DNA of 64,000 bases from an uncultured bacterium (GTDB lineage: Bacteria > Patescibacteriota > Gracilibacteria > BD1-5 > UBA2023), in contig CAIVSN010000144.1 in assembly GCA_903908595.1 (NCBI GenBank), positions 1,167 to 65,166 on the forward strand, in the 5' to 3' direction. Position 1 is the stretch's first letter. Each line of letters opens with the position of its first letter. Position numbers and translations under genes: made by a program. Shown piece by piece: positions 23,517-59,474 of the stretch. The notes below the pieces were generated by a model that saw only the letters and a program-made list of their open reading frames with translations, made no database searches and was not told where the DNA came from.

Positions 23517-25334
23517 TTATTTGTAGATGGTATAGCCGTAGCAGTAGCCGTCACTGACAGCGGAGGTAGAGTCTCAATATATGTTACTTTGAGTGGTACT
23601 ATTTAAATAACCGTATGTATCACCGCAATATCCATGAGAACAGAGGCTCTGATTTCCATTTGCCATAGTCGTGGTAACTCCGGAAAGCATCGACTGTACT
23701 CATTTACTATATACGTTCAAACCATTCACACGTAAGAATAATGAGCAAGCATAGCTATCCGAAGTTGTCGACCTGTAGATATTATAAATATACCCATTGG
23801 CCGTACCAGTAGACCAAGGGGAATTCTCAGTAATGGTCGTAGTGGGATGGGAAGACCCGTCGCTACTGTTCACATTTGGGCTTACTTGCTTTATCAAGCT
23901 GCAAGCGTACGTTGATTCAGAGGGGGTCTCATAGTGGATGGAATGATTCGGGCTGTATACTCAATATGTTGCGTGTATTCTCCATCTCCAAGAATTCGTG
24001 CCGTTTGCGGGATGTTGATACGAATCGGGATAAAACATCGTAGCGTGATTTTTCGCGGCTTCCACTTCGCACTGCGTTAACGTCATGACTCCAAGATTCT
24101 TGGTATAGGCATTGCGAATACACGACGGACAAGATCCGCCATTGGAAGACCACCCCGAAGTATCCGAAGCCAAGGAATTTCTCAAAGCACAGGCCGACCC
24201 ATCCCAAGCGTATCCCCAGCCAGTATTGCACTTGTACTGGCAGGTATTCGTCGCGGGACTCGCGAAATATCCCGCCGTCACCGCATTGAGCGAGGTTCCG
24301 CCGGACGCGCTCGACAGCGAGTAGCTCGACGTGGTATTGAAATATACTGAACCCGTTGGAAGTCCCGTACAGGCCCCGTCTACCAACGTGTTAGCCGTGC
24401 CGCCCCCTCCGCCCCCTCCCGCGCTTCCCCCCAATTGCGCGCTCACCAAACTCGTCCCGAACGACGCGAACGACCCGCTTGAGGTATTCATGAGCGTCGC
24501 GATGTTCTGGTTGCTTCTGATATCGGATCCGGAATACGCCGCCTGCAATGCCGCCACCATGGCGTTCAGGTCCGCCGCGCTCGCCGGCAATCCGCTCGGG
24601 TTCGAGGCCGTCTTCGCCCCGGAATGCACCACCGCCCCCGGAGGGAACGCGCTCGCCCCACGCAGGGCCTTCCCGTTGAACAGGAGCGAGCCCGAAAGCG
24701 AGCCTATGGGAGCGGAAGCCCCCGCAACGCTCCCGCTGTTCGTGAGGATGCCCGGGACGGCGAGGACGTACACCATGCCCCCCGTGCTCACCTTCGCGGT
24801 AAGCCCCCCGAAGTTCCCCCGGACGTAGGCCATGGAAGGGTTCCCGGCTTCGGCGTGGGCGGTGCCCGCGAGGAAGCCCGCGTCCGCGGCGTTCTGCGCC
24901 AGGTCGCCCTCGTACTCCGCCTTCAGCTGGTACGCTTTCCCTTCGGCGAGGGAAGAGTACCCGTACTCCGTGTTCTTCAGCGGGTCCAAGGGCTTCTCGT
25001 TGAGCCCCCCTCCGGCGATCGTCCCCTTGAAGTACTGCATGACGAGCGGTCAGACCGTCCCCTGGTTCCAGACGGTCCCACCCGAGTGCGTCACGGCGAA
25101 CGAGCCGTCCGGCAACGGATAGGAGCCCGATACGACCACGGAAAGGTCCAAAGACTTGGATGCCTGCGCGAGGTCGCCAATGCGGGCGGAGTCGCGGGCG
25201 CGCGACGAATAGCCCCCTATCGAGAGGAAGCCGATGGTGCCGAGGATGGCGAGGATAGTTATGACGACTATAAGCTCGACGAGGGTGAACCCTTTGAGTT
25301 TCCGGGATGCGGAAGGTGGTTTGGTGAAGAACAT
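23517..25334 (-). CDS. Type IV pilin-like protein with a large Cys-rich C-terminal domain (605 aa)
   Basis: MFFTKPPSASRKLKGFTLVELIVVITILAILGTIGFL. ORFs 25050-25505, 23961-25040 and 23700-23897 are in one frame, joined through TGAs 25050, 23961, 23700 and 23574. Stop TAA 23517-23519. The tail contains >15 Cys (CQYKCNTGWGYAWDGSAC...). Confidence 0.85.
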
Positions 25335-25626: not shown

Positions 25627-26262
25627 CTAATTCTTCTGACAGTACAACAGCGCGATATACGGCTGCATGTTGTCCGGGGCGGTTCCAGCTCATACTATAG
25701 TGGCTATAGCAGCACCTGCCAATGATGTATCAATGGTACCTCAGATAGATCAGGATTTCATCGGGATCGATGGAGTGGCATCTGAATAAACCCTTACGGC
25801 ACCAGCATATGTCCCAAGAGAGGTACCCGTGGGATTAGTTCAAAAATTACCTCAACTTGACCCATTGAGGCTTAAATTGTTTACAGTAGTTATGCTGACT
25901 CAACCAAGCGATACCGTGACGTTCGCATCACTCAGGGATGGTTTGCTTTTGTCTCAACCCATATCCCCCACGCTCGCATTGCTGCCAGCACCATTCCCCC
26001 GTCCGATAACCGTCCTTCCGGCAGCGGCCGAATATTCGGTCCAGCCGCTTGGGCAGCTCGCGAGATTGAAGCTCATGACCGCACCGGTCGGAATTCCGCT
26101 CTGAACGGTGTTCACGAGCTGGTTCCATTTCTGATAGTCGAGCTTGTCGCCGCTCGATGCCGTGAGCCCGGCCCAGGCGTAGACTCCGGTAGCGGTGAGC
26201 GCGATGGTGGCGGCAAGGCTCAGCGCGTATTTGCCGGCCGTCTTCATGGTTTGGTTTTTCAT
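25627..26262 (-). CDS. Secreted phage-tail-collar-like (MdpB-like) protein, paralog A
   Basis: MKNQTMKTAGKYALSLAATIALTATGVYA signal. PTGAVMSFNLASCPSGWTEYSAAAGRTVIGRGNG. Seven TGAs (25954, 25900, 25852, 25840, 25750, 25741, 25690). Ends ...APDNMQPYIALLYCQKN*. Alternative start 26283. Confidence 0.65.
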
Positions 26263-26387
26263 ATGGGTAAATTGGTTTTTCATATGGGTAAAAGTGAAAA
26301 GATAAGTTGAGTCTTTGCGTCCGTACTTATACCAAATTCATTTGATTCACCTGGCCTGCGAGCAAGTGGAGTTAGATTAATATGGTA

Positions 26388-26582: not shown

Positions 26583-27167
26583 CTAATTCTTCTGACAGTA
26601 CAGCAGCGCGATATACGGCTGCATGTTGTCCGGGGCGGTTCCTCAGCCTGCAATGGACGTCGTCACTCAGCCAAGATTCACGGGAGCTACTGGTGGCGTT
26701 CCTGTTGGCAGATAAATTGCGGCTGACGTTGGACCCGCAACTGTGCTCGTAAGTCATAAGTTTCAAGATTGTACCATAATCGCTCCTCCTGTTGAAGACG
26801 TACCCACCGAAATATTCGTAGTTACCGTTGCGCTCGAGAGACTCGGAGCGCTCTTCTCCCCTCCGACGTCTCAAACACTTGCATTACTCCCCGCGCCGTT
26901 CCCCCGTCCGATAACCGTCCTTCCGGCAGCGGCCGTATATTCGGTCCATCCCGTCGGACAGCTCGCGAGATTGAATGCCGCGACTTCGCCCGGAATTCGA
27001 CCGCTCTGAACGGTATTCACGAGCTGGTTCCATTTCTGATAGTCGAGCTTGTCGCCGCTCGATGCGGTAAGCCCCGCCCAGGCGTATACTCCGGTAGCGG
27101 TGAGCGCAATAGTGGCGGCAAGGCTCAGCACGTATTTGCTGGCCGTATTCATGGTTTGGTTTTTCAT
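26583..27167 (-). CDS. Secreted phage-tail-collar-like protein, paralog B
   Basis: MKNQTMNTASKYVLSLAATIALTATGVYA... N-terminal ~95 aa and C-terminal ~20 aa nearly identical to paralog A, with a divergent middle. Five in-frame TGAs. Stop TAG 26583-26585. Confidence 0.65.
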
Positions 27168-27213: not shown

Positions 27214-28248
27214 TTAGAGCGAACAATCGTCCACCGAGCTTCCATCGGTCGTCCCGTTTCAAAGGACGCAAGCTTCGGAAGCTCCCGGAGACTGCGACCC
27301 GCCTCACGTCGTGACTTTCCCGCTGAGCTGGTTGGAAACGATGGCGGTGCCGAGATTCTGTACCGCGGTCGTTCCGGTCGCGGAGAGGAGGCTTGCCACA
27401 TTGGAATTGGACGCGACGTCGGATCCGGCATAGGCGGACTTGAGCGCGGTTACCATGGCAGTGATCTGTCCGCTGGCGTCGCTTCCGGGAAGACCCGCGG
27501 TACTGGTGAAGACGACCCCGCTATTGGTTCGGGCGTTGGGATTGTAGGTACTGGCGTTCAGAAGGGGCTTACCGTTGAAGAGGAGGGTGCCGGAGAGGGC
27601 GTTGCTTTCGATCTTGAGGGCGTTGCCCGCCCCGGTCCCGCTGTTGGTAACGATGCTCGGGACGGCGAGGACGTAGGTGACGGATCCTGTGACGGTCCTG
27701 GCGGTGAGCCCTCCGTAGTTCCCACGGACATACGCGATCGTGGGGTTGCCGGCGTCGGCGGAGGCGGTCTGGACGAGTGGGTTTCCGGTTTGGTAGTAGG
27801 CGGTCGGATTCGGGAGGTCGTTCTCATATTCGGACTTGATCTGGTAGGCGTTGCCGAAGGCGAGAGTGGAATAGGTATATTCGGTATTCTTGAGCGGATC
27901 GAGGGGCTTTTCGTTGAGCCCACCCCCCGCTATCGTCCCCTTGAAGTATTGCATGACGTTCGTTCATACCGTTCATTGGTTCCAAACCGTTCCGCCGGAA
28001 TAGGTGACGGCGAAAGCGTTGTCCGGGATAGGATAGGCTCCGGCGGTGACGACGGAAAGGTCGAGAGATTTGGCCACTTGGGCGACGTCTCCTACCCTGG
28101 CGGAATCCCGGGCTTTGGAGGAATATCCGCCGATGGCGAGGAAGCCAATGGTTCCGAGGATCGCGAGAATGGTTATGACTACGACAAGCTCCACGAGGGT
28201 GAAGCCTTTGAACTTCCGAGAAACGGAAGATTTTTTGGAGTAGAACAT
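27214..28248 (-). CDS. Type IV pilin-like protein (344 aa, short C-terminus)
   Basis: MFYSKKSSVSRKFKGFTLVELVVVITILAILGTIGFL. WNQ[TGA]TV[TGA]TNVMQYFKG matches WNQGTVGSLVMQYFKG of the paralog near 59 kb. TGAs at 27973, 27964, 27304 and 27259. Stop TAA 27214-27216. Confidence 0.85.
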
Positions 28249-39093: not shown

Positions 39094-39507
39094 ATGGGAC
39101 TCGCAGAAAAAAGAGTGGTGAAACAATTCCAAGACGAAAACCTTCCAAAAATCCAAGAAGAGATGAAAACGCTCTCCGGCGTCGAAATCCCGTTCGAGGT
39201 AGAATGGGAATCGCTTCCCGACGATGGGAGCGCCAGCTATTTGATGGAGGGGCTCAATTACGTGTACTTTCTCCCGGTCCTCGAGGCGTTCCGATCCGTT
39301 TGTGCCGATGAAATGGGCAGGGAATCCATTGCGGCAAACCTGAAGAAAATCGTCATACGGAATCATGAGCCCGAACCGAACTACTTTGAAGCCATTACTT
39401 TCGTGGACGGGGTTCTCCTGATCGATCAGCGGCTCTCCAACATCGAAGAGAACTACATGAAAGAACGGGCAAAAAAAGTATTGGAAGCACTGGAAGCCGG
39501 ATTGTAG
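39094..39507 (+). CDS. Hypothetical protein, tandem paralog A (137 aa)
   Basis: MGLAEKRVVKQFQDENLPKIQEEMKTLSGVEIPFEVEWESL... By eye ~80% identical to 39623-40039. Confidence 0.7.
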   Translation: MGLAEKRVVKQFQDENLPKIQEEMKTLSGVEIPFEVEWESLPDDGSASYLMEGLNYVYFLPVLEAFRSVCADEMGRESIAANLKKIVIRNHEPEPNYFEAITFVDGVLLIDQRLSNIEENYMKERAKKVLEALEAGL

Positions 39508-39622: not shown

Positions 39623-40039
39623 ATGGGACTCGCAGAAAAAAGAGTAATGAAGCAATTCCAAGATGAGCAGCTTACAAAAATGCAAGCAGAGATGAAGGAA
39701 CTTGCCGGGGTTGAAATACCGTTTGAAGTAGAGTGGGAATCGCTTCCCCGCGAAAATAGCGCCAGCTTTCTGATGGACGGGCTCAACTACGTGTTTTTCC
39801 TTCCGGTTCTGGAAGCGTTCCGATCTGTCTGCGCCGACGAAATGGGCAAGGAAGCCATCGCCGCGAACTTGAAAAAAATCGTCATACGGAACTCCGAAGC
39901 AAAAGAGGGAAGCCCTCAGCCGGAAATCTCGTTCCTGGACGGGGTCCTCCTTATCGATCAGCGGCTCTCCAATAGCGACGAGAACTATATGAAGGAACGC
40001 ACGAAGGTGGTCATTCGTGCATTGGAAGCCGGTTTGTAA
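39623..40039 (+). CDS. Hypothetical protein, tandem paralog B (138 aa)
   Basis: MGLAEKRVMKQFQDEQLTKMQAEMKELAGVEIPFEVEWESL...ALEAGL*. Confidence 0.7.
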   Translation: MGLAEKRVMKQFQDEQLTKMQAEMKELAGVEIPFEVEWESLPRENSASFLMDGLNYVFFLPVLEAFRSVCADEMGKEAIAANLKKIVIRNSEAKEGSPQPEISFLDGVLLIDQRLSNSDENYMKERTKVVIRALEAGL

Positions 40040-40923: not shown

Positions 40924-42522
40924 ATGAAAGTCATTTTCGTCACCGGAGGCGTTTTGTCCGGAATAGGAAAAGGCATTACCGCTGCCAGCATCGGGGCCAT
41001 TCTTAAGGGAATGGACCATCGCGTGTTCTGCCAGAAATTCGACGGGTACCTCAACGTGGATCCCGGCACGATGAGCCCGTTCCAGCACGGGGAAGTCTTC
41101 GTCACGGAAGACGGGACGGAAACGGATTTGGACCTGGGCCACTACGAGCGTTTCCTCGACGTCGAGCTCAACAAGTATTCCTCGTTCACGACCGGAAAAA
41201 TCTACGAGGAAATCATTTCCCGGGAACGAAAAGGAGAATATCTGGGCGGAACCGTGCAGATCGTTCCTCACCTGACGGACCTCATCAAGGAAAAAATCAC
41301 GCTCGGGCACCAGACCTCGGGGGCGGATATCACCATCGTGGAAATCGGAGGAACCGTCGGCGACATGGAAAACGAATACCTGCTCGAAAGCGCCCGCCAA
41401 CTCCACACGGAGCTCGGGCGGGAAAACGCGATTTTCGTGCACGTAGCGCTCCTGCCCTACCTCGGCGCGAGCAAGGAACTCAAGACCAAGCCGGTGCAGC
41501 ATTCCGTGAGGGAACTCATGAGCTACGGCATTACGCCGGATTACCTCGTGCTCCGCGCGGACATGCAAATCCCGGACGACGTCCTCGAAAAGGTCGCCCG
41601 CGCCACCGGTATCCAGCATTCCCATGTCATTCCGGCAGCGACGGCGGACAGCATTTATCACGTTCCTTTGGATTTCGAAGAAAACCGCCTTTCGGAGAAA
41701 CTTTCGGCAAGCCTCGGACTGCCAAGCCGGAAATGCGATCTCGCGAAGTGGGAGCATCTCGTGGATAACATTTCCGCGTCCGAAGAAATCCTGAACCTGG
41801 GAATGATCGGCAAGTACAACGATCTCGAAGACGCGTACTACTCCCTCAACGAAGGGCTCCGGACGGCCGGGTATTTTTACCGGAAAAACGTGCGGATACA
41901 ATTCATCGATGCGACGCTCGTCGAGAAAAAGGGTATATCCGTCCTGGAAGGACTGGATGGCATCTGCATTCCGTGAGGATTCGGGGAACGCGGCATCGAA
42001 GGCATGGTGCTCGCGACCGAATACGCTCGGACGAACAAAATCCCGTTCCTGGGGATTTGCCTCGGCTCGCAGATCATGGCCATCGAATTCGCGAGGAACG
42101 TCCTCGGTATCGCGGACGCGAACAGCGAAGAATTCTCGCCAGAAGGCAAGTCGAACGTCGTCCGCATCATGGAAACCCAGAAATCGGTACGATCGAAAGG
42201 CGGTACCATGCGGCTGGGAACCTATCCGTGCGAGATTAGGAAAAGGACGCTCGCCCACGAAATCTATGGAGTGGAAACCGTTTCCGAACGGCACCGCCAC
42301 CGTTTCGAGTTCGACCCGGAATACCGGGAACGGATGGAACAGGCGGGATTCGTGGTTTCAGCGGTATCCCCCGACGGGTTGCTCGCGGAAATCGTCGAGC
42401 TCCGGGACCACCCGTACATGATCGCCACGCAAGCGCATCCGGAATTCAAGTCGAGGCCGACCCGGCCGCACCCGCTGTTTTTGGGGTTGGTACGGGAGAT
42501 GGGAAAAAATGCCAAGGGCTAG
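40924..42522 (+). CDS. pyrG: CTP synthase
   Basis: MKVIFVTGGVLSGIGKGITAASIG...; ORFs 40924-41976 and 42004-42522 joined at GICIP[TGA]GFGERGIEG = PGGFGxRG of the glutaminase domain (TGA 41974-41976); GICLGSQ active-site Cys. Confidence 0.95.
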
Positions 42523-45953: not shown

Positions 45954-47204
45954 TTATCGGGGTTTCCGGACGATATCGTCCAGTACCTCGAAAAACTTCT
46001 CCAGATCGTCCTGGGTCGTGTACATCGAAATGCTCATTCGCACCGTTCCGGAAATCTCCTGCCGGATATGGAACGGCTCGGCGCAGTGGTGCCCGGCCCG
46101 GACGCAGACGTCCTCGGCCGCGAAGGCGTCGGCCACGTCGGTAACGTGTTTCCCTTCGACCGTGAACGAGAATACCCCGGCCCGGATGGCACCGGATGGC
46201 AAAACGGCGACCGTGGGGCCGACGAGCGTTACCGTTTCGGACCGCTCCGCGAATTCTTCGAGCGCGTATTCGACGAGTTCCCGCTCGGTCTCGGCGACTT
46301 CCGGGTATCCGCCGACCGATTCGAAGTATTCGACGGCCGTGAGCAGGGAAACGGCTCCCGTGAGGTTCGGGGTTCCCGGCTCGAATCGGTACGGGAGGCC
46401 GGAAACCTCGTATCCGTCCGTATGGACAAAATTGATCGCTCCGCCGCCGCCGATGCAGGGTTCCATGGATTTGAGAAGCTCTTTCTTCCCCCACAGGATG
46501 CCGATGCCCGGATCCGCCCACATCTTATGGCCGGTAAATACCGCGAAATCAAGCCCGTTCGCGACTACGTCGACCGGGCCGTGCGGCACGAGCTGGCTCG
46601 CGTCCATGATGCGGTAGGGCGGCTTTCCCCATTCGGCTTGCCAATATTTCCCGATAGCGTCGTTGACCTCCGGAAAATTCACCCCTACGCCCGTCACGTT
46701 GGAGCATCACGTGAACGATACCACCTTGGTGTTCGGGGTGAGTTTCGCGACGAAGTCCGCCATATCGAGCTCGTAATCCGCATTCAGCCCGACGAATTCC
46801 ACCTCGATGCCGAGGGATTCCCGGAGCATCATCCAGGGGACGACGTTCGCGTGGTGCTCGACGATCGAGAGCAGCACCCGGTCGCCGGTTTTGAGCCAGC
46901 CGCTCCGCGCCATGGAACCCGCGAGCAGATTGAACGCGCCGGTAGCGTTGTTGGAATACGCGATTTCGTAGTGGCTTTCCGCGCCGATCAGGCGGGCGAC
47001 CGCGATTTTGGACTCCTTGTAGAGGGATTCCGAGAGCTCCGAGAGCTCGTACGAACCCCGATGGATATTGGCATACCCCCGTTCGAGGTATTCCGCGACC
47101 GCGTCGATGACGGCGGCGGGCTTCTGCGCGGTACTCGCGCTATCGAGATACACGAGGTCCGGATGGGATTCGAAAATCGGGAAGTCGGAGCGGATATCGG
47201 TCAT
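45954..47204 (-). CDS. sufS: Cysteine desulfurase SufS (class V aminotransferase)
   Basis: ORFs 46707-47204 and 45954-46697 joined through TGA 46707-46709 (VVSFT[G]CSNVTGV). YLDSASTAQKP; C-terminal active-site RAGHHCAEP. Confidence 0.9.
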
Positions 47205-47216
47205 TTTTGATAAAAA

Positions 47217-48176
47217 TTAAAATCCTAAATTTTTGAAAATTTGTTTCTGGAGATATTCGAGCGCCGGTTCCGCCAGTCCGGCATACGTCTGGGAAATCCG
47301 GGCGGAAAGATACGTTTTCTGCGCCAGTGTACGGGAGATTCCGCGGGATGCAAGGTAAGAAAGCATTTCCCCGGAAACCCGTTCCACCGTGGCCGAATGG
47401 CTCGCGAGCCCGTCTTCCGAAGCGACCCGGAGTTCGGGAATTCCCCGGACTCCTCCGGTTTCCCCGAGCAGGAGCGCGGATTCGTGGATTTTGACGTCGT
47501 AATCGGCGGTACCGGATCGGACGTCGGCGGAAATTTTCGCGTTCGCCCGGGCCCCGTCAGGCACGAGGACCAGGGCTTCGTGGACATATCAGTTCGATAC
47601 GCCGGAAACCGTCCCGAGGCTCGTGAAACGGCGCTCCGCCGAAACGTCCCCGACGATGACCGACCGGAGTTCGGCCTGGGCCTTCGCGGTTGCAAGGATT
47701 ATCTGGATTTCGCTCGCATCCGAGAGCTCGAGGGAAAATATTTTCGCGTCGCCCGTCACGGAGATTTCCGTGATTCCTTCGCCGTAAACGAAATAATTGC
47801 CAGAGCCGAGCACGTGCGAAGTTCCCGCCTCCAAAATCGAAATGCCCGCGAATTCCTTCGGCGCCTTCGCCGGGTCCCCGGCAAACCGGAAACTCGAACC
47901 GCACCCGCACCGCCCGGTGACTTTTTCCGAAGTGAAAATCCATTTTTCTCCGGATCGGGTGATTCGGGAACCGTCGAGTTTTTCGGATTCGGAAGCGGGG
48001 CAGGACACCGTGAACCCGTCGTCCATCGTGAATGTTTCGAGGATTTCCCCGGTCGGGATTTCCGTCAGGACTTCTACTTTGGTGCCTTCGCATCCTTTTT
48101 TGATGAGATGCACGAACACCTCGCGAACGCCCTGTTCACGGAATTTCTGAAGCGATATTTTGTCGAGAGTAATCAT
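47217..48176 (-). CDS. sufD: Fusion of a HesB/IscA (SufA-like) domain with a short SufD-like C-terminal domain
   Basis: N-terminus KKGCEGTKVEV...GRCGCGSSFRF (IscA CGCGxSF motif). ORFs 47589-48176 and 47217-47564 joined through TGA 47589-47591. C-terminus LLLGETGGVRGIPELRVASEDGLASHSATVERVSGEMLSYLASRGI is SufBD-fold-like. Confidence 0.75.
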
Positions 48177-48242
48177 AAAGTTACGGTAATATATAGACTC
48201 TTGCGGAATTCCCGAAAGTATCCGCAGTACCCATGTCCCTCA

Positions 48243-48369
48243 CTTGGAATCGCGAGAAAATGATGAAATCCGAAGTCGGTTTTGAACACTGCAGCGAGGC
48301 GTGCTGGCAAGCACGTTGAGCGAAGAGCGGAAAAATCGACAAGGAGTTCGCATTTTATCGCGATTCCAA
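48243..48369 (-). repeat. Copy 5 of the structured post-CDS element (between sufB and the sufA/D fusion)
   Basis: Arms CTTGGAATCGCGAGAAAATG (48243-48262) / CATTTTATCGCGATTCCAA (48351-48369). Middle stem GTCGGTTTT/AAAATCGAC. Apical CGTGCT-GGCA-AGCACG. Confidence 0.9.
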
Positions 48370-48371
48370 TT

Positions 48372-49787
48372 TTATCGCGATTCCAATTCCATGCCAATGA
48401 GAATGTTCATCTCCACCGCATATTCGAGCGGGAGTTCGCTGACGATCGGTGCGAGGAACCCATTGACGATCATCTGCTTGGCGGAGGTTTCGTCCATACC
48501 CCGGCTTTCGAGATAGGCGAGCGTTTCCTCGGAAATTTTCCCAACGCTGGCTTCCTGTGCGACGAGCGCGTCCGGGGTGCCGACCCGGATGTCGGGGGTC
48601 GTGTCCGACCGGGACCGTCCGTCGAGCAACAATCCGTCGCACGTCACCTGGGAGACCGCCCCTTTCGCGCACGGCTTGATATCCACGAGCCCCCGGTAAT
48701 TCGAAACCCCGCCCGCTTTCGAGAGCGACTTAGAAATGACTTCCGAGGTCGTCCGCTCTCCGATGTGGATAACCTTGGCGCCCGTGTCCGCCACCTGCCC
48801 GGCATTCGCGAACGCGACCCCGATATGGCGGGCTTTGGAATCGTCGCCCACGAGCACGGAACACGGATAGAGCATCGTTACCCCGGAGCCGAGATTTCCC
48901 CCGATCCATTCGACGAATCCGCCTTCTTGGACGATGGCCCGTTTGGTATTGAGGTTGTACGTGTCGATCGACCAATTCTCCACGGAACTGTACCGCATCT
49001 TGGCGGACGACCCGACATATATTTCGACACAGCCAGCGTGCAGGCTCGACGTCCCGTATTTTGGCGCGGAACACCCCTCGATGTAGTGGGCCTCGGACTC
49101 GTCTTCGAGCACGATGATCGTGTGCTCGAACTGCCCGCCGGACTTCGCGTTCATCCGGAAATACGCTTGGAGCGGTTCCGCGATCTTGACGCCCTTCGGG
49201 ACGTAGAGGAAGGTTCCCCCACTCCAAACCGCCCCGTGCAATGCCGCAAATTTGTGATCCGAAGCCGGCACGGCCTTCATGAAATGCTTCCGAAGGAGCT
49301 CCTCGTGACGGTGGATCGCTACCGACATGTCCTCAAAAATCACGCCCTGTTCGACCAATTCTTCTTTGAGCTTGTGGTAAACGACCTCACTGTCGTACTG
49401 GGCCCCGACCCCCGCGAGCATCTGGCGTTCCGCTTCAGGAATCCCGAGCTTTTCGAAGGTGTTCTTGATGGTTTCCGGCACGTCGTCCCACGATTTGGCA
49501 TCGGTCGCCCCGGCGGGTTTGGCAAAATAAAAGATGCCCCGTAAATCGAGCCCGCTCAAGTCCGGCCCCCATTCGGGCATGGGCTTCGACTCGAAGATTT
49601 TCAATGACCTGAGGCGCAGTTCCAGCATCCATTTCGGTTCGTTCCCGTTTTTGGAAATCTGTCGGACCACGGCTTCGTCGATGCCCGCCGCGGAAACCGC
49701 CGCATAGGCGATATCGTCCCGCCCGTCGAAAATCTCGCGGGAAAGCCCCTCGAATATATGCGCGTTCGTCGTTTGATTGGAAGGCAT
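48372..49787 (-). CDS. sufB: Fe-S cluster assembly protein SufB
   Basis: 471 aa; the SufB family is recognisable throughout (..SGGQFEHTIIVLEDESEAHYIEGCSAP..). Confidence 0.9.
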   Translation of the reverse strand: MPSNQTTNAHIFEGLSREIFDGRDDIAYAAVSAAGIDEAVVRQISKNGNEPKWMLELRLRSLKIFESKPMPEWGPDLSGLDLRGIFYFAKPAGATDAKSWDDVPETIKNTFEKLGIPEAERQMLAGVGAQYDSEVVYHKLKEELVEQGVIFEDMSVAIHRHEELLRKHFMKAVPASDHKFAALHGAVWSGGTFLYVPKGVKIAEPLQAYFRMNAKSGGQFEHTIIVLEDESEAHYIEGCSAPKYGTSSLHAGCVEIYVGSSAKMRYSSVENWSIDTYNLNTKRAIVQEGGFVEWIGGNLGSGVTMLYPCSVLVGDDSKARHIGVAFANAGQVADTGAKVIHIGERTTSEVISKSLSKAGGVSNYRGLVDIKPCAKGAVSQVTCDGLLLDGRSRSDTTPDIRVGTPDALVAQEASVGKISEETLAYLESRGMDETSAKQMIVNGFLAPIVSELPLEYAVEMNILIGMELESR

Positions 49788-49790
49788 AGG

Positions 49791-50552
49791 CTAAATGATC
49801 GGATGAACGTGCGAAGGCGCGGCGAAACCGGTTTTTTCGACTTCCCGGAGGAGTTCTGCGGATCCGGTTTCGGCAATTTTCCCGTCTTCCATGACGATGA
49901 CGCGGTCGGGCGGGAGGAATTCCGCGAGCCGGTAGTTGTGGGTGACGACGATAAGCGTCCGTTCCGGGGTCGCAAGTTCGGCAAGGGAAGCCGCGACGGA
50001 CTTGAACGCGTCGATGTCGAGTCCCGAGTCGATTTCGTCCACGAGGACGTACTTGGGGTTCAGGATTTCCATCTGGAGCATCTCGACGCGCCGTTTCTCG
50101 CCCCCGCTGAATCCCACATTGAGGTCTCGCCCGAGGAACGACTCGGGAAGCCCGAGCTTCTCCAGCTTCTGCACGATGTACCGCCGGAACAAAAACGGCG
50201 TGACGGGTTTGGTTTCCGGGTGTTCCCGCTTGAGCTTTTCGTTGGAAATCGTCCGGAGGAATTCCCCAAGCTTGATGCCCGGGATTTCCGGGATATTCTG
50301 GAGCGCGAGAAAAATCCCGAGGTGGGCGCGTTCGGTGATGTCCATATTCGAGATATCCTTGCCATCGAGTTCGATGGTCCCGGCCGTAATCCGGTATTTC
50401 GGATACCCCATGACGCTCATCGCGAGGGAGGATTTCCCGCCGCCGTTTTTCCCGACGACATAATAAGTTTTTCCCGTCTGGAACTGGATATCGATACTTC
50501 GCAACACGGATTTTTCCCCTACGGAAACTGAGAGGTTTTTGAGTTCCAACAT
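49791..50552 (-). CDS. sufC: Fe-S cluster assembly ATPase SufC
   Basis: ABC ATPase with Walker A GKNGGGKSS, signature FSGGEKRR, Walker B YVLVDEIDSGLD. Confidence 0.9.
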   Translation of the reverse strand: MLELKNLSVSVGEKSVLRSIDIQFQTGKTYYVVGKNGGGKSSLAMSVMGYPKYRITAGTIELDGKDISNMDITERAHLGIFLALQNIPEIPGIKLGEFLRTISNEKLKREHPETKPVTPFLFRRYIVQKLEKLGLPESFLGRDLNVGFSGGEKRRVEMLQMEILNPKYVLVDEIDSGLDIDAFKSVAASLAELATPERTLIVVTHNYRLAEFLPPDRVIVMEDGKIAETGSAELLREVEKTGFAAPSHVHPII

Positions 50553-50646: not shown

Positions 50647-52260
50647 TTATTTTATCCAAATGATACCGGATTGATTATCATATGATCAAGCGCCCGAAAT
50701 ATCAAATCGCATTCAATTCTCAGTACTGTAGGTACTATACCCAAAACGTTGTCAAAAATTACTATAGGCGGTCGGCAAATATTGAGTACCGTCGAAGTAT
50801 CACGATACATCGGTTCCCGCGGCATTCGTTTCCGCATTGTTCAGTGTCGAATACACTGTACATAGGAACGATCCCGCACAACTTCATCCGGAATTCATTC
50901 GGAGATCCGTAGGCCATGTTTTGCCGCTCGTCCTGTGATACCAATCGGAAGCGGATTGGTCGGATCGGACCAATTTCAAGACGGAATTCGTTCTGGAACT
51001 TATGGCATTCAAATCCGCAGTACTCATCCTTCCGCTCGTTCCGAACGTTTTGTTCACTATACTGCTCAAATTGCAACCATTTGAATTGTTGTAACACGCA
51101 GCCCCCATATTCCCGTTCGTGATTTTGAAGGCAAGCGACCACCCTCCGCCATCCGAAGTCATATCGCAGTAAGCCTTGAAACTGCTGGTACCAGTAGGAT
51201 TTATCCAATATACGCCATCGCCGGTATCTCCGGTATACAGTTTCGGGGCGGACGGATTCTTGTATGAGAAGCAACTCGTAGCATACGTCCCGTCCGCCCA
51301 ATTCCTTCATGTAGTGTCGTTTCCGGAAATATATCCGCTTGCCACGGGGACGATCAATGGGGAAACCGTGCTTGTTCCTCCGAGATGCCCGACCAACATG
51401 CTGGTGCCATAGGTCGCGAGGGAACCGCTTGACAGGGAAACGAGCGTCGCGATGTTCCGGTCGGACCTGAGGTCGCTTCAGGAATACGCGTTCTGAAGCA
51501 TCGTCATCATCGAGGAAATCTCCGAGTCCGTACTCGGAAGCTTGGCTCAAGAGAACACCACTTGGGCAGGGTTGAACCCACTCGCGTTTCGAAGCGCCTT
51601 CCCATTGAAAAGGAGGGTACCGGAAAGCGAAGCCACGGGCACGGGAGCCCCATTGGTGGTCCCGCTGTTCGTAACGATGCTCGGGATCGCGAGAACATAG
51701 ACGCTGCTCCCCGTGGTCGTTTTCGCGGTAAGTCCCCCGAAATTCCCACGGATGTAGGCCGTCGCCGGATCTCCCTCTGCGGCGAATGCGGATTCAACGA
51801 GCAAGTTTCCATTCATAGCCGCTTGGTTCATATCCCCTTCACATTCCGCCTTGATCTGGTAGGCCTTCCCTTCCGCGAGAGTGGAATACGTATATTCGGA
51901 ATGCTTCAATGGATCGACGGGTTTTGTTCCCAATCCCCCTCCCGGAATGGTAGCTTTGAAATACTGCATGACGAGCGGTCCGATAGTTCCCTGATTCCAG
52001 ACGGTTCCCCCGGAATATGTCACGGCAAACGAATTATCGGGAAGCGGGTATGATCCGGAAGTGACGATGGCAAGATCCAAAGATTTGGATACCTGTGCAA
52101 TGTCCCCGATCCTCGCCGAATCCCGGGCTTTGGACGAATACCCGCCGATAGCGAGAAACCCGATGGATCCAAGTATCGCAAGAATAGTGATTACTACGAT
52201 AAGTTCTACGAGAGTGAATCATTTGATTTTCCTCCGGAAGGGATATTGCCTTGTACACAT
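50647..52260 (-). CDS. Type IV pilin-like protein fused to a C-terminal fibrinogen-related (FReD-like) domain (537 aa)
   Basis: MCTRQYPFRRKIK[TGA]FTLVELIVVITILAILGSIGFL, with TGA 52219-52221 as the Gly(-1) of the prepilin site. Nine TGAs in total. Tail: ATSCFSYKNPSAPKLYTGDTGDGVYWINPTGTSSFKAYCDMTSDGGGWSLAFKITNG. Stop TAA 50647-50649. Confidence 0.8.
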
Positions 52261-52409: not shown

Positions 52410-53861
52410 CTACGCTACCAGCATCTTCAACGCCGCCGGATTAAACAGGAAAAAATACCCAAGCACCAGCATGATGCTTCCTCCGATAATCAGGCAATAC
52501 CTCGTGTATTTGGTCGTGAGTCCCAGGTATTGGAACGCGTACAGCGCAATCCCGAACACCACGAAGTCGTCCACCATGTAGAACAGCGTGTATATGCTGA
52601 TGTAGAATTGCTTCCCCGCGAATCCGACGGAACTCATTTCGAGCAGTTTGGTGAACGCCTGGGGGATTCCCACGGAACACGCGAATTCGATGACGTTCAC
52701 CGAGAACGCCACCCCGATGGTCGCGAGGAAAATCCCGAACGACATGGGCGCATTGACGATGTTCCGGATCTTTTCGGTCAATTTCTTTTTCTGGCTCATG
52801 CTGGTGACCTTGCACTCCCCGTCCTTGTTCGTGAAGAATTCATAGAGGAAAAATATCCCCGCCCCGATGGAAACCACCCCGATGATCGGCGTCACGATCC
52901 GGTCGAGCTGGACGAAATCCCAGGTCTTGTACCACACGTTGAGGATCGCGTAGTACATGATCGCTTCCGCCAGGATGAAAATTCCCGCGATCTGGAGCAT
53001 TTTCTTCCGCGAACCCGTCTGCGCGAGAATCGTGAGGAATACCACGAGCACCCACATCGCGCACGGGTTGAAGCCGTCCACGAACCCGAGCAGCATCGCG
53101 AGGAACAGCAGGGAATAGTCCTTGAGGTTGATCGTGCCCATCCACGGGATCTTGACGTATACCCCGCCGGCGGCGGCCGTTTCGGCTTTGGCGGACTTGG
53201 GGATCAGGCAATTTTCGCCGTCCTCGCAGGTCGCGCCGCCCTTGGTCGTTACGACGTTCGTAAGGACGTCCTCGAAGTACGAGCTCTTGTTCATTTTCGC
53301 GACGGCTTCCGCGATCATCCGGCCAGTCGTGTCGGCATCCTGGAATCCCTCTATGACGGAATTTCCGACGAGGAGAATCGGGGTAGCCTTGCTGATGCCC
53401 TTCTCGGTGGTGAACTTGTCGAAGAGCGCACGGTTGGTCGCGTCTTCGAGGTCATAGTACTTCGGACGAACGGAGCCGGTACCGTAGGCGGAGGAAAGGA
53501 ATTTTTCGAGCGCGATGCAGTGCGTGCAATCCTTGCGGGAAAATATGGAGAATTCCATGACTTTTTCCGCTGGAATGGGGACTTGGACGATGTCCCCCTG
53601 AATGGGAAGTTCCACGGCCTTCTCCGCGGGAATCGGGAGTCTGGCGGCATCGTTCCGTACTGGCAATTCCTTGATTTTCTCCACTGGAATCGGGACCCGC
53701 ACGATGTTGCTCCGGTAAGAATCCGGCGGCATGGGGGACGCGGTCATCCTGTCGGCGAGCTCCCGGGATACCGCCCCGTCGGGCGCCGGTGCCGCAACCA
53801 AACCGAATACGCTTTGGGAAGTCAGCGTCAACGCCAAAATTCATAAAAAAAATCGGTTCAT
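52410..53861 (-). CDS. Glutaredoxin/thioredoxin-like domain fused to a CcdA/DsbD-family thiol-disulfide transporter membrane domain
   Basis: Signal MNRFFL[TGA]ILALTLTSQSVFG from ATG 53859-53861. FSRKDCTHCIALEKFL redox motif. Membrane core LLGFVDGFNPCAMWVLVVFL. Confidence 0.7.
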
Positions 53862-57551: not shown

Positions 57552-59474
57552 CTAATTCTTGAGGCAACGGAGCGAGAACCCGTTCCCACGAGTATTTGAA
57601 TACGCGATATTGCCGCCGCCGGAGGAGAAGTCTGCGATGTAGGAGTTCGGGGAATACGGAGACGACGACCAGTAGTAGCCGCCCGACCCCTGATTGTAGT
57701 AGTACCCATTAATCCAATGCCGGTACCCGGCAAGGGGGAGCTTGAGCGCGCACCGGGTCCGGTCGTACGCGTTCGCCTGGTTGCAGGAGCCGAAAGCGGC
57801 GTTCGAATTGACGATGGCGTAGAGCGTTCCCCATTGGGTGGAGGTATCCGACGTTCCGCCGGTCGGGATATGGTATCCGGACGGGCAAGGTCACTGGGCG
57901 TCGCCGCCGTTGCCGGCGTTCCATCCGCCGGACGGGTTTGTGGCCCCGGCCCATTTCCAGTCGCCATAAAAGGCTTCCCCCTGGTAGAAGTTCGGGGTTC
58001 ACGTGGTATTCGCGGGCGACGTGAGCGTCCCGCCGTACTGGCTGGCCGTCCAAGTCCCGGAAGTGACGATGTCGTTGCGCCCCCACTGGTAGTAGTTGCC
58101 CTGGACGGCCGCAACCCGGTTGATCGGCAGGGCTGACGCGGTCGCGGTCGGGTTCGGCGACTGCGCGGGAACGGCATCGTACCCGGCCGAGGTCGTGGCG
58201 CCCACGTTGCAGGCGGCCCAGATCTGGACGTTGTCGGTGCCCTGTTGCCATACGGCGATATCGTTGGTATCGCAGGACGGATCGGACTTCGTGCCGCTCG
58301 TGCCGATGCCGGCGGCGGTTACCGTGACGTTGGTTCCGCCGTAGGAGAACTGCTGGGATGGCGCGTAGGTAGTGGCGGAAGCGTATGCTGGAGCCATCGG
58401 GGTCGGGGTTCCGCTTCCCCCGCTCGTCGTCGCTTTCCCGCCGAGCTGATTGGACACGATGGCGGTGCCGAAGCTTTGGACGGCGCCGGTGCCGGTGGCG
58501 GAGAGGAGGGACGCTACGTTCGTATTGGAGATTACGTCAGAGCCGGAGTAGGCGGACTTGAGGGCCGTCACCATGGCGGTGATCCGGCCGTCCGCGTCGC
58601 TTGCCGGAAGCCCGCCGGTGCCGGAGAAGACGACTCCGCTGTTCGCGCGGGCGTTGGGATTGTAGGAAGAAGCGTTCTGGAGCGGCTTGCCGTTGAAGAG
58701 GAGGGTGCCGGAGAGGGCGTTCTGCTCGATCCGGAGGAGGTTTCACGCCCCGGTCCCGCTGTTGGTGATAATGCTGGGTATCGCGAGGACGTAGGTGAAG
58801 GAACCGGTGACGGTCTTGGCGGTGAGTCAGCCGTAGTTGCCACGGACATAGGCGATAGTGGGGTTGCCGGCTTCGGCGGAGGCGGTCGGAAGCAAGGGAT
58901 TGCCGGCTTGGTCGGAAGCGGTCGGGACGAGCGGGTTGCCGGCTTGCCCGCCGTCCCGGTACGCCGTGGGATTGGGGACGTCGTTCTCGTAGTCGGCCTT
59001 GATCTGGTAGGCGGTGCCGAAAGCGAGGGAGGAGTAGGCGTATTCGGAGTTTTTGAGGGGGTCGGTGGGCTTGTCGTTGATACCGCCGCCGTTCACGGTA
59101 CCCTTGAAGTACTGCATGACGAGGGATCCGACGGTTCCTTGGTTCCAGACGGTCCCGCCGGAATAGGTGACGGCGAAGGAATTGTCCGGTACCGGGTAGG
59201 TACCGGCGGTGACGACCGAGAGGTCGAGGGACTTGGAGATCTGGGCGACGTCGCCGACGCGGGCGGAATCGCGGGCTTTGGAGGAGTATCCGCCGATGGA
59301 GAGGAAGCCGATGGTGCCGAGGATGGCAAGTATGGTGATGACTACGACGAGCTCAACGAGGGTGAAGCCATGGAAGGATTTTTTCTCGGGTTTCGAACCG
59401 TGGGCAATCCCAGTGGCATGGGAAGCGCGAACGGTTGCGGGGACGGATGCGTTGGCATTCTTTGTGGGTTTCAT
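57552..59474 (-). CDS. Type IV pilin-like protein fused to a C-terminal FISUMP-like (Fibrobacter succinogenes major paralogous) domain (640 aa)
   Basis: ...KKSFHGFTLVELVVVITILAILGTIGFL. ORFs 58827-59681 and 57999-58574 joined with the tail through TGAs 58827, 58743, 57999 and 57891. Tail: NYYQWGRND...[G]PCPSGYHIPT...LKLPLAGYRHWINGYYYNQGSGGYYWSSSP...GFSLRCLKN*. Confidence 0.8.

What the first reader, a model, noticed from the sequence alone, without database searches (positions are those of the whole stretch)
50647..51546. Second pilin paralog carries a fibrinogen-related (FReD-like) C-terminal domain
After the conserved pilin core, the code-25 frame (8 more TGAs) gives ATSCFSYKNPSAPKLYTGDTGDGVYWINPTGTSSFKAYCDMTSDGGGWSLAFKITNGNMGAACYNN... 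This is the C..SG.Y.I.P......F.VYCDM...GGGW signature of fibrinogen C-terminal globular / ficolin-type lectin domains. Such domains bind acetylated sugars in animals. On a pilin it suggests glycan-directed attachment.
Basis: partly seen in the sequence, partly recalled or inferred. Interest (0 to 1): 0.75.

Follow-up and report, generated by a model that had tools for sequence, protein, structure and literature searches.

The report
Pilin with fibrinogen-like binding module
A pilus subunit of an uncultured Gracilibacteria-type bacterium that reads TGA as glycine carries a fibrinogen-related domain at its C-terminus, probably to grip host cells; the fusion is real, but this pilin-plus-module design, including this particular pairing, is already catalogued.

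Summary
On the minus strand, 52260..50647 encodes a 537-aa protein under code 25, with 9 in-frame TGA=Gly codons. It has a class III (prepilin) signal, a ~297-aa pilin core, a short linker and a ~225-aa C-terminal module.

The module belongs to the fibrinogen-related (FReD) superfamily:
- Pfam Fibrinogen_C scores above its cutoff, but only on profile positions 10-53.
- NCBIfam GGGWT_bact scores 48 bits (cutoff 30).
- A family profile hits only FReD/intelectin chains in the PDB (5e-13).
- An AlphaFold model of the target's own 140 residues (pLDDT 85) matches only FReD/intelectin folds.

Homology covers the A and B subdomains. The ligand-binding P subdomain is not recognisably conserved: the Ca2+ (DxDxD) and WWYxxC motifs are absent. 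Ficolin-like acetyl-sugar binding is therefore unsupported.

The gene is one of five prepilin paralogs in the window that share a core and carry different modules (SPRY, FISUMP, unknown, none). Of the 120 closest public pilin-core relatives, 16 carry a FReD-like module, and NCBI already names two such proteins. A 2021 survey of modular pilins lists the pilin+fibrinogen-C architecture.

Verdict: a real, ordinary new member of a known kind, most likely a pilus-displayed adhesin with an unknown ligand.

The parts
50647..52260 (-). Complete CDS of the modular prepilin (537 aa under code 25; stop TAA at 50647-50649; 9 in-frame TGA=Gly codons whose first bases are 52221, 51549, 51480, 51309, 50886, 50802, 50754, 50715, 50688)
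   Evidence: Translation and codon positions. The self-trained codon model picks this frame.
52162..52260 (-). Class III (prepilin) signal: 13-aa basic leader MCTRQYPFRRKIK, Gly(-1) encoded by TGA (52221-52219), Phe(+1), Glu(+5), hydrophobic alpha1-N
   Evidence: Pfam N_methyl PF07963 aa 9-33, 32.3 bits. TIGR02532 26.4 bits. aa 10-72 align to solved pilins/pseudopilins.
51370..52221 (-). Mature pilin core (aa 14-297), shared at 50-80% identity with three of the four other prepilin paralogs of the window (22-52% with the SPRY paralog) and with hundreds of Gracilibacteria proteins
   Evidence: Paralog alignment. 643 database relatives; 117 of the top 120 have a prepilin motif.
51325..51369 (-). 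Short Gly/Ser/Thr/Pro-rich linker (aa 298-312) after which the paralogs stop being alignable
50650..51324 (-). FReD-superfamily C-terminal module (aa 313-537; GGGWT_bact type)
   Evidence: sequence/profile. (structure). Homologs cover the whole module.
51133..51234 (-). Core signature of the FReD A subdomain (aa 343-376: DGVYWINP...FKAYCDMTSDGGGW); Cys332 and Cys367 are invariant in the family
   Evidence: NF040941 hit at aa 343-376. Invariant columns C20/C55 of alignment A1.
50889..51306 (-). TGA-free stretch (aa 319-458) covering the A and B subdomains; modelled directly
   Evidence: AlphaFold2 pLDDT 85.3, pTM 0.81. Foldseek top 50 are all FReD/intelectin, TMq mostly 0.4-0.49 for FReD chains (0.32-0.36 for intelectin-type lectins), rmsd 3-6 A.
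50650..50886 (-). C-terminal ~79 aa (aa 459-537) in the position of the FReD P subdomain; divergent, holds 5 of the 9 TGAs; ends in the family-conserved last strand (SGIIWIK)
   Evidence: No canonical Ca2+/pocket motifs. No Pfam hit. No confident profile-profile alignment. Low pLDDT in the homolog model. Conserved in orthologs L082 and P0029.

Best explanation
The gene encodes a modular type IV (pre)pilin of a Gracilibacteria-type CPR bacterium that reads TGA as glycine.

Proposed mechanism:
- A prepilin peptidase would cut after the TGA-encoded Gly(-1).
- The hydrophobic alpha1 helix and the ~297-aa core would insert the protein into a type IV filament, most likely at or near the tip given its bulk.
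- The C-terminal ~225-aa FReD-superfamily module would be held out as the binding head.
- The module would act as an adhesin that recognises a surface molecule (glycan or protein) of the host or prey cell.
- It is one of a repertoire of alternative heads (FReD-like, SPRY, FISUMP, unknown) mounted on the same scaffold in this genome.

Shown: the genetic code, the prepilin signal, the shared core, the module boundary, FReD homology and fold for the A and B subdomains, and recurrence of the fusion in related genomes.

Inferred: filament incorporation, tip location, adhesin role and ligand class. The ficolin-type acetyl/Ca2+ site is not conserved, so the specificity is unknown.

Confidence by layer: identity as prepilin plus FReD-like module about 0.9; pilus-displayed adhesin about 0.6; glycan ligand about 0.35.
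For: - Code 25 and ORF.
- Prepilin signal.
- FReD module, sequence level: Pfam/NCBIfam; PDB phmmer; family profile hits only FReD/intelectin at 5e-13, with alignment into the B subdomain; hhalign to canonical bacterial FReDs 99.5% probability.
- FReD module, structure level: AlphaFold of the target fragment pLDDT 85 with FReD-only Foldseek hits; the full-module homolog gives FReD-only hits.
- Modular family: five paralogs with one core and different modules. 643 relatives carry FISUMP, LamG, DUF1566, LRR, discoidin, RCC1 or Fibrinogen_C heads. 16 of 120 carry this module.
- Full-length ortholog in L082 and fusions in L100, L103, L105 and P0029.
- Precedent: modular pilins present adhesive modules on type IV pili (PMC8179133). 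Lectin-like minor pilins mediate host binding in Saccharibacteria (PMC11623550). Gracilibacteria express type IV pili and are thought to attach to hosts (PMC11452946).
Against: - No pilus assembly genes or prepilin peptidase lie in the 64-kb window; the gene sits between a suf operon and a membrane protein.
- A ~300-aa core is large for a pilin, and only its first ~70 aa match solved pilins.
- The region that binds ligand in animal FReDs is not conserved and could not be modelled with confidence.
- The full-module model had to use a homolog mistranslated with Trp for Gly.
- There are no expression or localisation data.
- TM-scores to FReDs are moderate (0.33-0.49).
Confidence: 0.6

Rival explanations
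1. One reading: the module is a ficolin/FIBCD1-type lectin that binds acetylated sugars (GlcNAc, ManNAc, sialic acid) through the canonical Ca2+-dependent S1 pocket, giving glycan-directed attachment.
For: FReD-superfamily membership is real. FIBCD1, ficolins and tachylectin 5A are among the structural matches. Bacterial cell walls are rich in N-acetylated sugars (established knowledge). Sugar-inhibitable pilus binding is seen in another CPR lineage (PMC11623550).
Against: The P subdomain carrying that pocket is not conserved: no DxDx[DNS] Ca2+ motif and no WWYxxC motif in the target or its ortholog P0029. Canonical bacterial FReDs found in the same searches do keep both motifs (L084 module 4). 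Profile-profile alignment has no confidence beyond about residue 77. The last 80 aa give no Pfam hit.
Confidence: 0.15
2. The class III signal is used only as a membrane anchor or export tag. The protein is a cell-surface display scaffold or a type II-secretion-like pseudopilin, not a subunit of an extended pilus. The FReD-like head would work at the cell surface, as with archaeal class III-signal binding proteins.
For: NCBIfam also gives weak GspG/GspH-type matches to the N-terminus. The core is about twice the size of typical pilins and matches solved pilins only in alpha1. The gene is not next to pilus machinery. The same module also sits on non-pilin membrane-anchored giant proteins.
Against: Modular pilins with bulky heads are shown to assemble into type IV pili in S. 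sanguinis (PMC8179133). Type IV pilus systems are expressed in Gracilibacteria (PMC11452946). A module-less paralog (27214-28248) could serve as the major subunit.
Confidence: 0.2
3. Artefact: under the standard code the region is a string of short ORFs (a pseudogene), and the YCDM..GGGW match is a chance motif.
For: Nine in-frame TGAs would be stops under table 11. The Pfam match covers only 44 of 221 profile positions.
Against: TGA falls on invariant Gly positions in housekeeping and pilin genes. Code 25 lengthens ORFs window-wide. The lineage is known to use code 25 (PMC11452946). Orthologs from 25% and 43% GC genomes conserve the whole module. E-values reach 5e-13 and the matches are FReD-only.
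Confidence: 0.01

Closest known systems
Modular type IV pilins (Streptococcus sanguinis PilB with a vWA module, PilC with a ConA-like lectin module; Raynaud et al. 2021, PMC8179133)
   Same: N-terminal IPR012902/PF07963 prepilin motif plus pilin module, a short linker, then a non-pilus 'effector' domain at the C-terminus. That paper's Dataset S1 lists IPR012902-IPR002181 (pilin plus fibrinogen C-terminal domain) 8 times, and IPR012902-IPR013545-IPR002181 twice.
   Different: The carrier here is a ~297-aa Gracilibacteria-specific core, not a small pilin module. The head is a derived FReD rather than vWA or ConA-like. None of the fibrinogen-type fusions has been studied experimentally, as far as the searched literature shows.
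NCBIfam NF040941 'fibrinogen-like YCDxxxxGGGW domain-containing protein' (GGGWT_bact), including Gracilibacteria prepilins MDD2871264.1 (P0042) and MFK7780198.1 (P0078)
   Same: The target scores 48.3 bits against a cutoff of 30. P0042 and P0078 are also prepilins (AFTLVELIVV) with a C-terminal GGGW module from Candidatus Gracilibacteria.
   Different: The model covers only the 46-aa A-subdomain signature. The rest of the target's module belongs to a rarer subfamily (target, L082, P0029, fragment P0128) that is only distantly related to the P0042/P0078 modules.
Animal FReD lectins and receptor ligands (ficolins, FIBCD1, tachylectin 5A, tenascin, angiopoietins, FGL1, fibrinogen beta/gamma C domains; Pfam PF00147)
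   Same: A-subdomain signature with its disulfide. B-subdomain sequence motif (K.SD..IN...YR against FWLGLDNLNKIT..YELRVDL). Predicted fold.
   Different: The P subdomain with the Ca2+ site and acetyl/peptide pocket is not conserved. The Pfam match covers only profile positions 10-53. It is bacterial, fused to a pilin, and shows no coiled-coil or collagen oligomerisation stalk.
Intelectins / X-type lectins (human intelectin-1, Xenopus XEEL, lamprey serum lectin 7e1e)
   Same: Best single-sequence PDB hit (7e1e, 2.9e-6, query 28-107) and top Foldseek ranks for the target fragment. Like the target, they share only the N-terminal part with FReDs and have a different ligand-binding half.
   Different: Only about 60-80 columns align (TMt about 0.18). 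Nothing links the target's C-terminal half to the intelectin Ca2+/exocyclic-diol site. That site was not tested.
Saccharibacteria minor pilins PilX1/PilX2 with lectin-like C-terminal domains (PMC11623550)
   Same: A CPR bacterium, large pilins with accessory C-terminal domains predicted to be lectin-like, and a genetically shown role in host binding.
   Different: Different lineage, different pilin scaffolds and different head folds (L-type-like and PLL-type/beta-propeller). No sequence relationship was tested.

Membership tests
Type IV pilin / class III signal peptide proteins (PF07963, TIGR02532) | Short basic leader ending in Gly(-1), then Phe(+1), Glu(+5) and a ~20-aa hydrophobic alpha1-N | tested here: met
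   MCTRQYPFRRKIK-G|FTLVELIVVITILAILGSIGF. PF07963 32.3 bits (cutoff 21.2). TIGR02532 26.4 bits (cutoff 16.3).
Type IV pilin / class III signal peptide proteins (PF07963, TIGR02532) | Extended alpha1 helix homologous to that of solved pilins | tested here: met
   aa 10-72 align to Geobacter PilA-N (8.4e-7), and more weakly to GspG, PilE and PilA.
Type IV pilin / class III signal peptide proteins (PF07963, TIGR02532) | Globular alpha/beta pilin head domain packed on alpha1-C | not tested
Residues 80-297 have no sequence match to a solved structure.
Type IV pilin / class III signal peptide proteins (PF07963, TIGR02532) | Genome encodes a prepilin peptidase and filament assembly machinery; the protein is incorporated into filaments | not testable with these tools
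   None of these genes is in the 64-kb window. Type IV pilus systems are reported as expressed in Gracilibacteria (PMC11452946).
Modular pilins (Raynaud et al. 2021) | Prepilin/pilin module joined by a short linker to a C-terminal domain not specific to pilus biology | tested here: met
   The core ends at about aa 297, the linker is aa 298-312 and the FReD-like module is aa 313-537. Four of the five paralogs swap the module and one has none. The architecture is listed in Dataset S1.
NCBIfam NF040941 GGGWT_bact | Score above the curated cutoff for the YCDxxxxGGGW domain model | tested here: met
   48.3 bits against cutoff 30, aa 343-376.
Fibrinogen-related domain (FReD; Pfam PF00147 Fibrinogen_C) | A subdomain: conserved Cys...YCDM...GGGW with its disulfide pair | tested here: met
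   Pfam positions 10-53 matched, 25.7 bits above cutoff 22. Both Cys are invariant in family alignment A1.
Fibrinogen-related domain (FReD; Pfam PF00147 Fibrinogen_C) | B subdomain: central sheet/helix following GGGW | tested here: met
   The family profile aligns to tenascin FReD over positions 29-201. The AlphaFold model of target aa 319-458 (pLDDT 85) gives only FReD/intelectin hits, mostly 100-130 columns and rmsd 3-6 A for FReD chains (61-77 columns for intelectin-type lectins).
Fibrinogen-related domain (FReD; Pfam PF00147 Fibrinogen_C) | Full-length match to the 221-position domain profile | tested here: not met
   Only profile positions 10-53 match. By contrast, a canonical FReD in a close relative's surface protein matches 12-220 at 221 bits.
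Fibrinogen-related domain (FReD; Pfam PF00147 Fibrinogen_C) | P subdomain with Ca2+ site (DxDxD), second disulfide and WWYxxC pocket wall that form the acetyl/peptide-binding site | tested here: not met
   No such motifs in the target or in P0029. No Pfam signal in the last 80 aa. hhalign has no confidence beyond about residue 77. Low pLDDT over residues 146-213 of the homolog model.
Intelectin / X-type lectin | Intelectin-specific C-terminal half with a Ca2+-coordinated exocyclic-diol binding site | not tested
   Only the shared FReD-like N-terminal 60-80 residues align.

The most novel reading that the evidence does not exclude
Gracilibacteria may keep a swappable library of host-recognition heads on one conserved pilin scaffold. 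The window alone has five paralogs (FReD-like, SPRY, FISUMP, unknown, none). The heads appear to be exchanged laterally between lineages, and between pilins and giant non-pilin surface proteins, much like phage receptor-binding-protein cassettes.

Hints:
- The target's module is as conserved across 25-54% GC genomes as, or more than, its carrier.
- It has lower GC and more TGA codons than the core.
- Pilin-borne modules are polyphyletic.

A corollary is that the FReD superfamily, usually treated as an animal innovation, is large in bacteria. The search found 2,616 clusters at 50% identity, of unverified taxonomy, and the genome loci checked were all bacterial. It includes fully canonical FReDs in Gracilibacteria and canonical P-subdomain motifs in a Myxococcota protein.
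Probability: 0.35. Interest if true: 0.55.

Novelty: new member of a known kind. Interest (0 to 1): 0.3.

Why it matters
Gracilibacteria are uncultured, recoded, host-dependent bacteria whose hosts and attachment mechanisms are unknown. A family of pilins with interchangeable binding heads gives concrete, expressible candidates for host-recognition determinants, and this FReD-like pilin is one of them.

The work also exposes a practical problem. About 44% of the closest public homologs are mistranslated (TGA read as Trp), and the target itself is absent from the protein collections searched. Surveys of these surface proteins are therefore systematically degraded.

The finding does not open a new category. 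Modular pilins, bacterial GGGW domains and this very fusion are already in databases.

Tried and rejected
Workaround: the exact 140-aa TGA-free fragment, plus the P0029 module, which is mistranslated with Trp for Gly. The P-like region could therefore not be modelled properly for the target.
2. The word-indexed homolog search with the module alone found only 2 hits. The full-length query and the exhaustive search were needed.
3. Looking for the source contig by an exact 44-mer in species-representative genomes found nothing.
4. No tRNA genes are in the window, so no tRNA-Gly(UCA) check was possible.
5. The promoter/terminator scan around the gene gave nothing above shuffled expectation that is worth interpreting. 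The only lead is a weak -35/-10 match at 52329-52301.
6. Pfam on the last 80 aa, on the unknown module of the 23517 paralog and on the 26583 protein gave no hits.
7. Literature searches for a dedicated study of bacterial FReD/GGGW domains or of CPR modular pilins with fibrinogen-like heads found none.
8. The idea that the giant tandem-module protein of the closest relative is itself a pilin was rejected: its N-terminus has no prepilin motif.
9. The pseudogene and chance-motif readings were rejected (see rivals).
Full report
**1. What is in the sequence**

The feature lies on the minus strand. Read with TGA as glycine (table 25), the frame opens at ATG 52260 and ends at TAA 50649-50647, giving 537 aa. 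It contains nine in-frame TGAs: one at 52221 and eight more at 51549, 51480, 51309, 50886, 50802, 50754, 50715 and 50688. The module proper is aa 313-537 (51324..50650).

**2. The genetic code**

TGA=Gly does not rest on the pilin alone.
- In the target, TGA encodes the invariant Gly(-1) of the prepilin cleavage site (KIK-G|FTLVELIVV).
- In CTP synthase (40924-42519), the single TGA sits in the amidotransferase motif P-G-G-F-G.
- TGAs in one pilin paralog align with GGN glycines in the others.
- The TGA at aa 318 falls on a Gly conserved across the module family.
- Code 25 raises the longest ORF from 999 to 2512 aa.
- The CTP synthase is 91% identical to that of a Patescibacteria MAG and 52-75% identical to dozens of Candidatus Gracilibacteria/'Peribacteria' MAGs. 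This lineage is known to use the code (PMC11452946).

The pseudogene reading is rejected.

**3. The pilin half**

- Pfam N_methyl scores 32.3 bits and TIGR02532 26.4 bits, both above their cutoffs.
- Residues 10-72 align to the alpha1 helix of solved pilins and pseudopilins: Geobacter PilA-N 8e-7, with GspG, PilE and PilA weaker.
- A self-trained codon model for code 25 and Pfam show five prepilin genes in the 64-kb window.

The five prepilin genes:

| Coordinates | Strand | C-terminal module |
|---|---|---|
| 16123-17571 | + | SPRY (full-length PF00622 match) |
| 23517-25334 | - | Unknown Cys-rich module |
| 27214-28248 | - | None |
| 50647-52260 | - | FReD-like (the target) |
| 57552-59474 | - | FISUMP-type (below the Pfam cutoff, full profile length) |

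Four of the five align at 50-80% identity up to about residue 297 of the target. The SPRY paralog is more distant in the core (22-52% identity). A short Gly/Ser/Thr-rich linker follows, and after it the paralogs are unrelated.

The full-length database search found 643 relatives of this core, and 117 of the top 120 have a prepilin motif. Their C-terminal parts carry FISUMP, LamG, DUF1566, LRR, discoidin, RCC1, SBBP, InlB-B or Fibrinogen_C domains. This is the 'modular pilin' design described for S. sanguinis PilB/PilC, which is surveyed across bacteria in PMC8179133.

**4. The C-terminal module is a real FReD-superfamily domain**

Sequence-level evidence:
- Pfam Fibrinogen_C is above its gathering score (25.7 vs 22) but matches only profile positions 10-53 of 221.
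- NCBIfam has a dedicated bacterial model, NF040941 GGGWT_bact, which scores 48.3 bits against a cutoff of 30.
- A single-sequence search of PDB sequences finds only FReD and intelectin-type lectins (best 7e1e, 2.9e-6).
- An exhaustive HMMER search with the exact 140-aa TGA-free fragment finds 2,616 representative clusters at E<=1e-3 and 441 at E<=1e-10. Dozens align over the whole ~220-aa module.
- A 24-sequence family alignment headed by the target (A1) was used as a profile against PDB sequences. It hits 60 distinct chains: 59 are FReD or intelectin chains, and the last is a marginal lipoprotein match at E=0.61. The best is tenascin at 5e-13.
- That alignment extends into the B subdomain. 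The family motif K-x-S-D-x-x-I-N...Y-R lies on FWLGLDNLNKIT...YELRVDL.

Structure-level evidence:
- The structure tool refuses code-25 translations, so I modelled two substitutes.
- The first was the module of P0029, the closest full-length relative. The public record has TGA mistranslated as Trp. The model has pLDDT 67 and pTM 0.69.
- The second was the target's own residues 319-458, with pLDDT 85.3 and pTM 0.81.
- It returns only FReD/intelectin proteins for the second model. The top 50 have probability >=0.95. FReD chains align over about 100-130 columns at rmsd 3-6 A with TMq mostly 0.4-0.49. Intelectin-type lectins align over 61-77 columns with TMq 0.32-0.36.

**5. What is not conserved**

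In ficolins, FIBCD1 and tachylectin 5A, the ligand pocket and Ca2+ site lie in the P subdomain (established knowledge of the family).
- The corresponding last ~80 residues of the target have no DxDx[DNS] motif and no WWYxxC motif.
- They give no Pfam signal.
- They are the low-confidence part of the homolog model (residues 146-213).
- They do not align with any confidence to canonical bacterial FReDs in a profile-profile comparison. That comparison gives 99.5% probability overall, all of it earned in the first ~77 residues.
- Canonical P subdomains do exist in bacteria found by the same searches: P0169 (Myxococcota), P0157 and P0234.
- One module of a giant surface protein in the closest relative genome matches Pfam Fibrinogen_C over positions 12-220 at 221 bits.

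So the target's subfamily is a derived FReD whose binding half has changed. 'Binds acetylated sugars' is not supported. 'Binds something' is an inference from the fold family and the architecture.

**6. Recurrence and relatives**

- Of the 120 closest pilin-core relatives, 16 carry this kind of module.
- Two of them, MDD2871264.1 and MFK7780198.1, are named by NCBI 'fibrinogen-like YCDxxxxGGGW domain-containing protein [Candidatus Gracilibacteria]' and start with AFTLVELIVV.
- In species-representative genomes, L082 (43% GC Gracilibacteria MAG) encodes a full-length ortholog: core 52% and module 58-59% identical, ending ...SGIIWIK.
- L100, L103 and L105 are further prepilin-module fusions.
- P0029 comes from a 25.5% GC contig with 39 TGA and 4 TGG codons. 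It has the same module (54% over 221 aa) on a much more divergent, shorter pilin (37% over 131 aa).
- Pilin-borne modules are not one clade. The L103/L105 module is closest to module 1 of a non-pilin, membrane-anchored 1760-aa protein with six tandem modules (48% over 237 aa). It is far from the target's module.
- The module is thus a shuffled unit among Gracilibacteria surface proteins.
- Outside this lineage, more distant copies occur in Myxococcota, Bradymonadaceae, Halobacteriovoraceae, Bacteroidales and others.
- Within the target, the module has lower GC (46.7 vs 54.2%) and a higher share of Gly encoded by TGA (21 vs 9%) than the core. This fits later acquisition from a lower-GC relative, but amino-acid composition could also explain it.

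**7. How it most likely works**

- Shown: a prepilin signal, a conserved carrier, a linker and a FReD-like head.
- Inferred from established type IV pilus biology and from PMC8179133: cleavage after Gly(-1), insertion through alpha1 into a type IV filament, and exposure of the head at or near the tip because of its bulk.
- Inferred from lifestyle: Gracilibacteria express type IV pili and are thought to attach to other cells (PMC11452946). In Saccharibacteria, lectin-like minor pilins are needed for host binding (PMC11623550).
- Inferred function: the head recognises a host or prey surface molecule, and the paralogs with other heads widen or switch the target range.
- Context gives no extra clue. 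The gene lies between sufCBDS and a membrane protein, with no pilus machinery in the window.

The rival readings are a ficolin-type acetyl-sugar lectin, a surface display or pseudopilin not in an extended pilus, and an artefact. They are weighed in the rival section.

**8. Novelty and score**

- The architecture IPR012902-IPR002181 is already tabulated (8 proteins, plus 2 with an extra domain) in Dataset S1 of PMC8179133.
- NCBI has a curated bacterial model for the domain and already applies it to Gracilibacteria prepilins.
- I found no experimental study of any such fusion.
- The target itself is not in the protein collections searched; the best hit is 68% identical over the core only.

It is a new member of a known kind: a sound, useful annotation and a reasonable candidate host-recognition factor, but not a surprise to a specialist. 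Interest is 0.3.

The most novel reading still open is a cassette-like, laterally exchanged repertoire of pilin heads, with an unexpectedly large bacterial FReD superfamily as a corollary. I give it a probability of about 0.35.

Noticed in passing
window 16123-17571 (+), 23517-25334 (-), 27214-28248 (-), 57552-59474 (-): Four further prepilin paralogs share the target's ~297-aa core but carry other C-terminal modules. These are SPRY (PF00622, full profile, 35 bits), an unknown ~290-aa Cys-rich module with no Pfam hit, no module at all (344 aa, a possible major pilin), and a FISUMP/Fib_succ_major-type module (25.4 bits, below the 33.9 cutoff but covering profile 6-187/187).
   Followed up: partly
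whole window; e.g. 16150-17571 (13 TGA), 50647-52260 (9), 25627-26283 (7), against sufBCDS 45954-50552 and pyrG 40924-42522 (0-1 each): TGA(Gly) codons are concentrated in pilin and other secreted-protein genes and are nearly absent from housekeeping genes (pilins against the rest, Fisher p=0.0025). Within the target, the module has lower GC (46.7 vs 54.2%) and a higher TGA share of Gly (21 vs 9%) than the core. This could reflect lateral origin from low-GC relatives or expression-level codon choice.
   Followed up: partly
L084 (JAVHRB010000049.1) and L107:13257-end (closest relative genome): A 1760-aa membrane-anchored, non-pilin surface protein carries six tandem FReD-like modules. One is a complete canonical FReD (Pfam Fibrinogen_C 221 bits, profile 12-220/221, with the DQDND Ca2+ motif and the NCA...WWY..C pocket). 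A fully animal-type FReD in a CPR bacterium is notable.
   Followed up: partly
public homologs P0003-P0122 (e.g. P0029, P0031, P0048, P0052; locus L081): 53 of the 120 closest database relatives are Trp-rich because TGA was translated as Trp (code 4) instead of Gly. P0029 has 39 TGA codons against 4 TGG. This degrades homology searches and structure prediction for the whole lineage.
   Followed up: yes
window 25627-26283 (-) and 26583-27167 (-): Tandem paralogs encode small secreted proteins with near-identical N-terminal ~55 aa and the C-terminal motif GTAPDNMQPYIALLYCQKN. By eye this recalls phage tail-collar-type domains, but no Pfam hit was found. They sit next to the 27214 pilin and are rich in TGA codons.
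   Followed up: partly
window 4593-11927 (-): A 2444-aa secreted protein contains several nearly identical ~95-aa repeats (VTPTVTLSGASIVSAYTATEAASRFSAGLQVSTTGAATATVNGSS...), plus fibronectin-III-like stretches by eye. It is probably another surface or adhesion protein.
   Followed up: no
window 13577-15910 (-) and 3469-4530 (-): A VIT plus von Willebrand A protein with a C-terminal membrane anchor, and an S-layer-homology (SLH) protein with long poly-Gly runs. These are further cell-surface proteins, so the window is dense in envelope and adhesion genes.
   Followed up: partly
window 39094-39507 (+) and 39623-40039 (+): Tandem duplicated genes encode ~137-aa proteins that begin MGLAEKRV(V/M)KQFQDE. 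Their function is unknown.
   Followed up: no
window 52410-53837 (-), immediately upstream of the target: A 475-aa protein has a signal peptide, P-I-P-x-E-K repeats, a CxxC glutaredoxin/thioredoxin-like stretch (SRKDCTHCIALEKF) and a multi-pass membrane domain. It has no Pfam hit. A possible role in disulfide formation for the Cys-containing surface proteins nearby is speculative.
   Followed up: no
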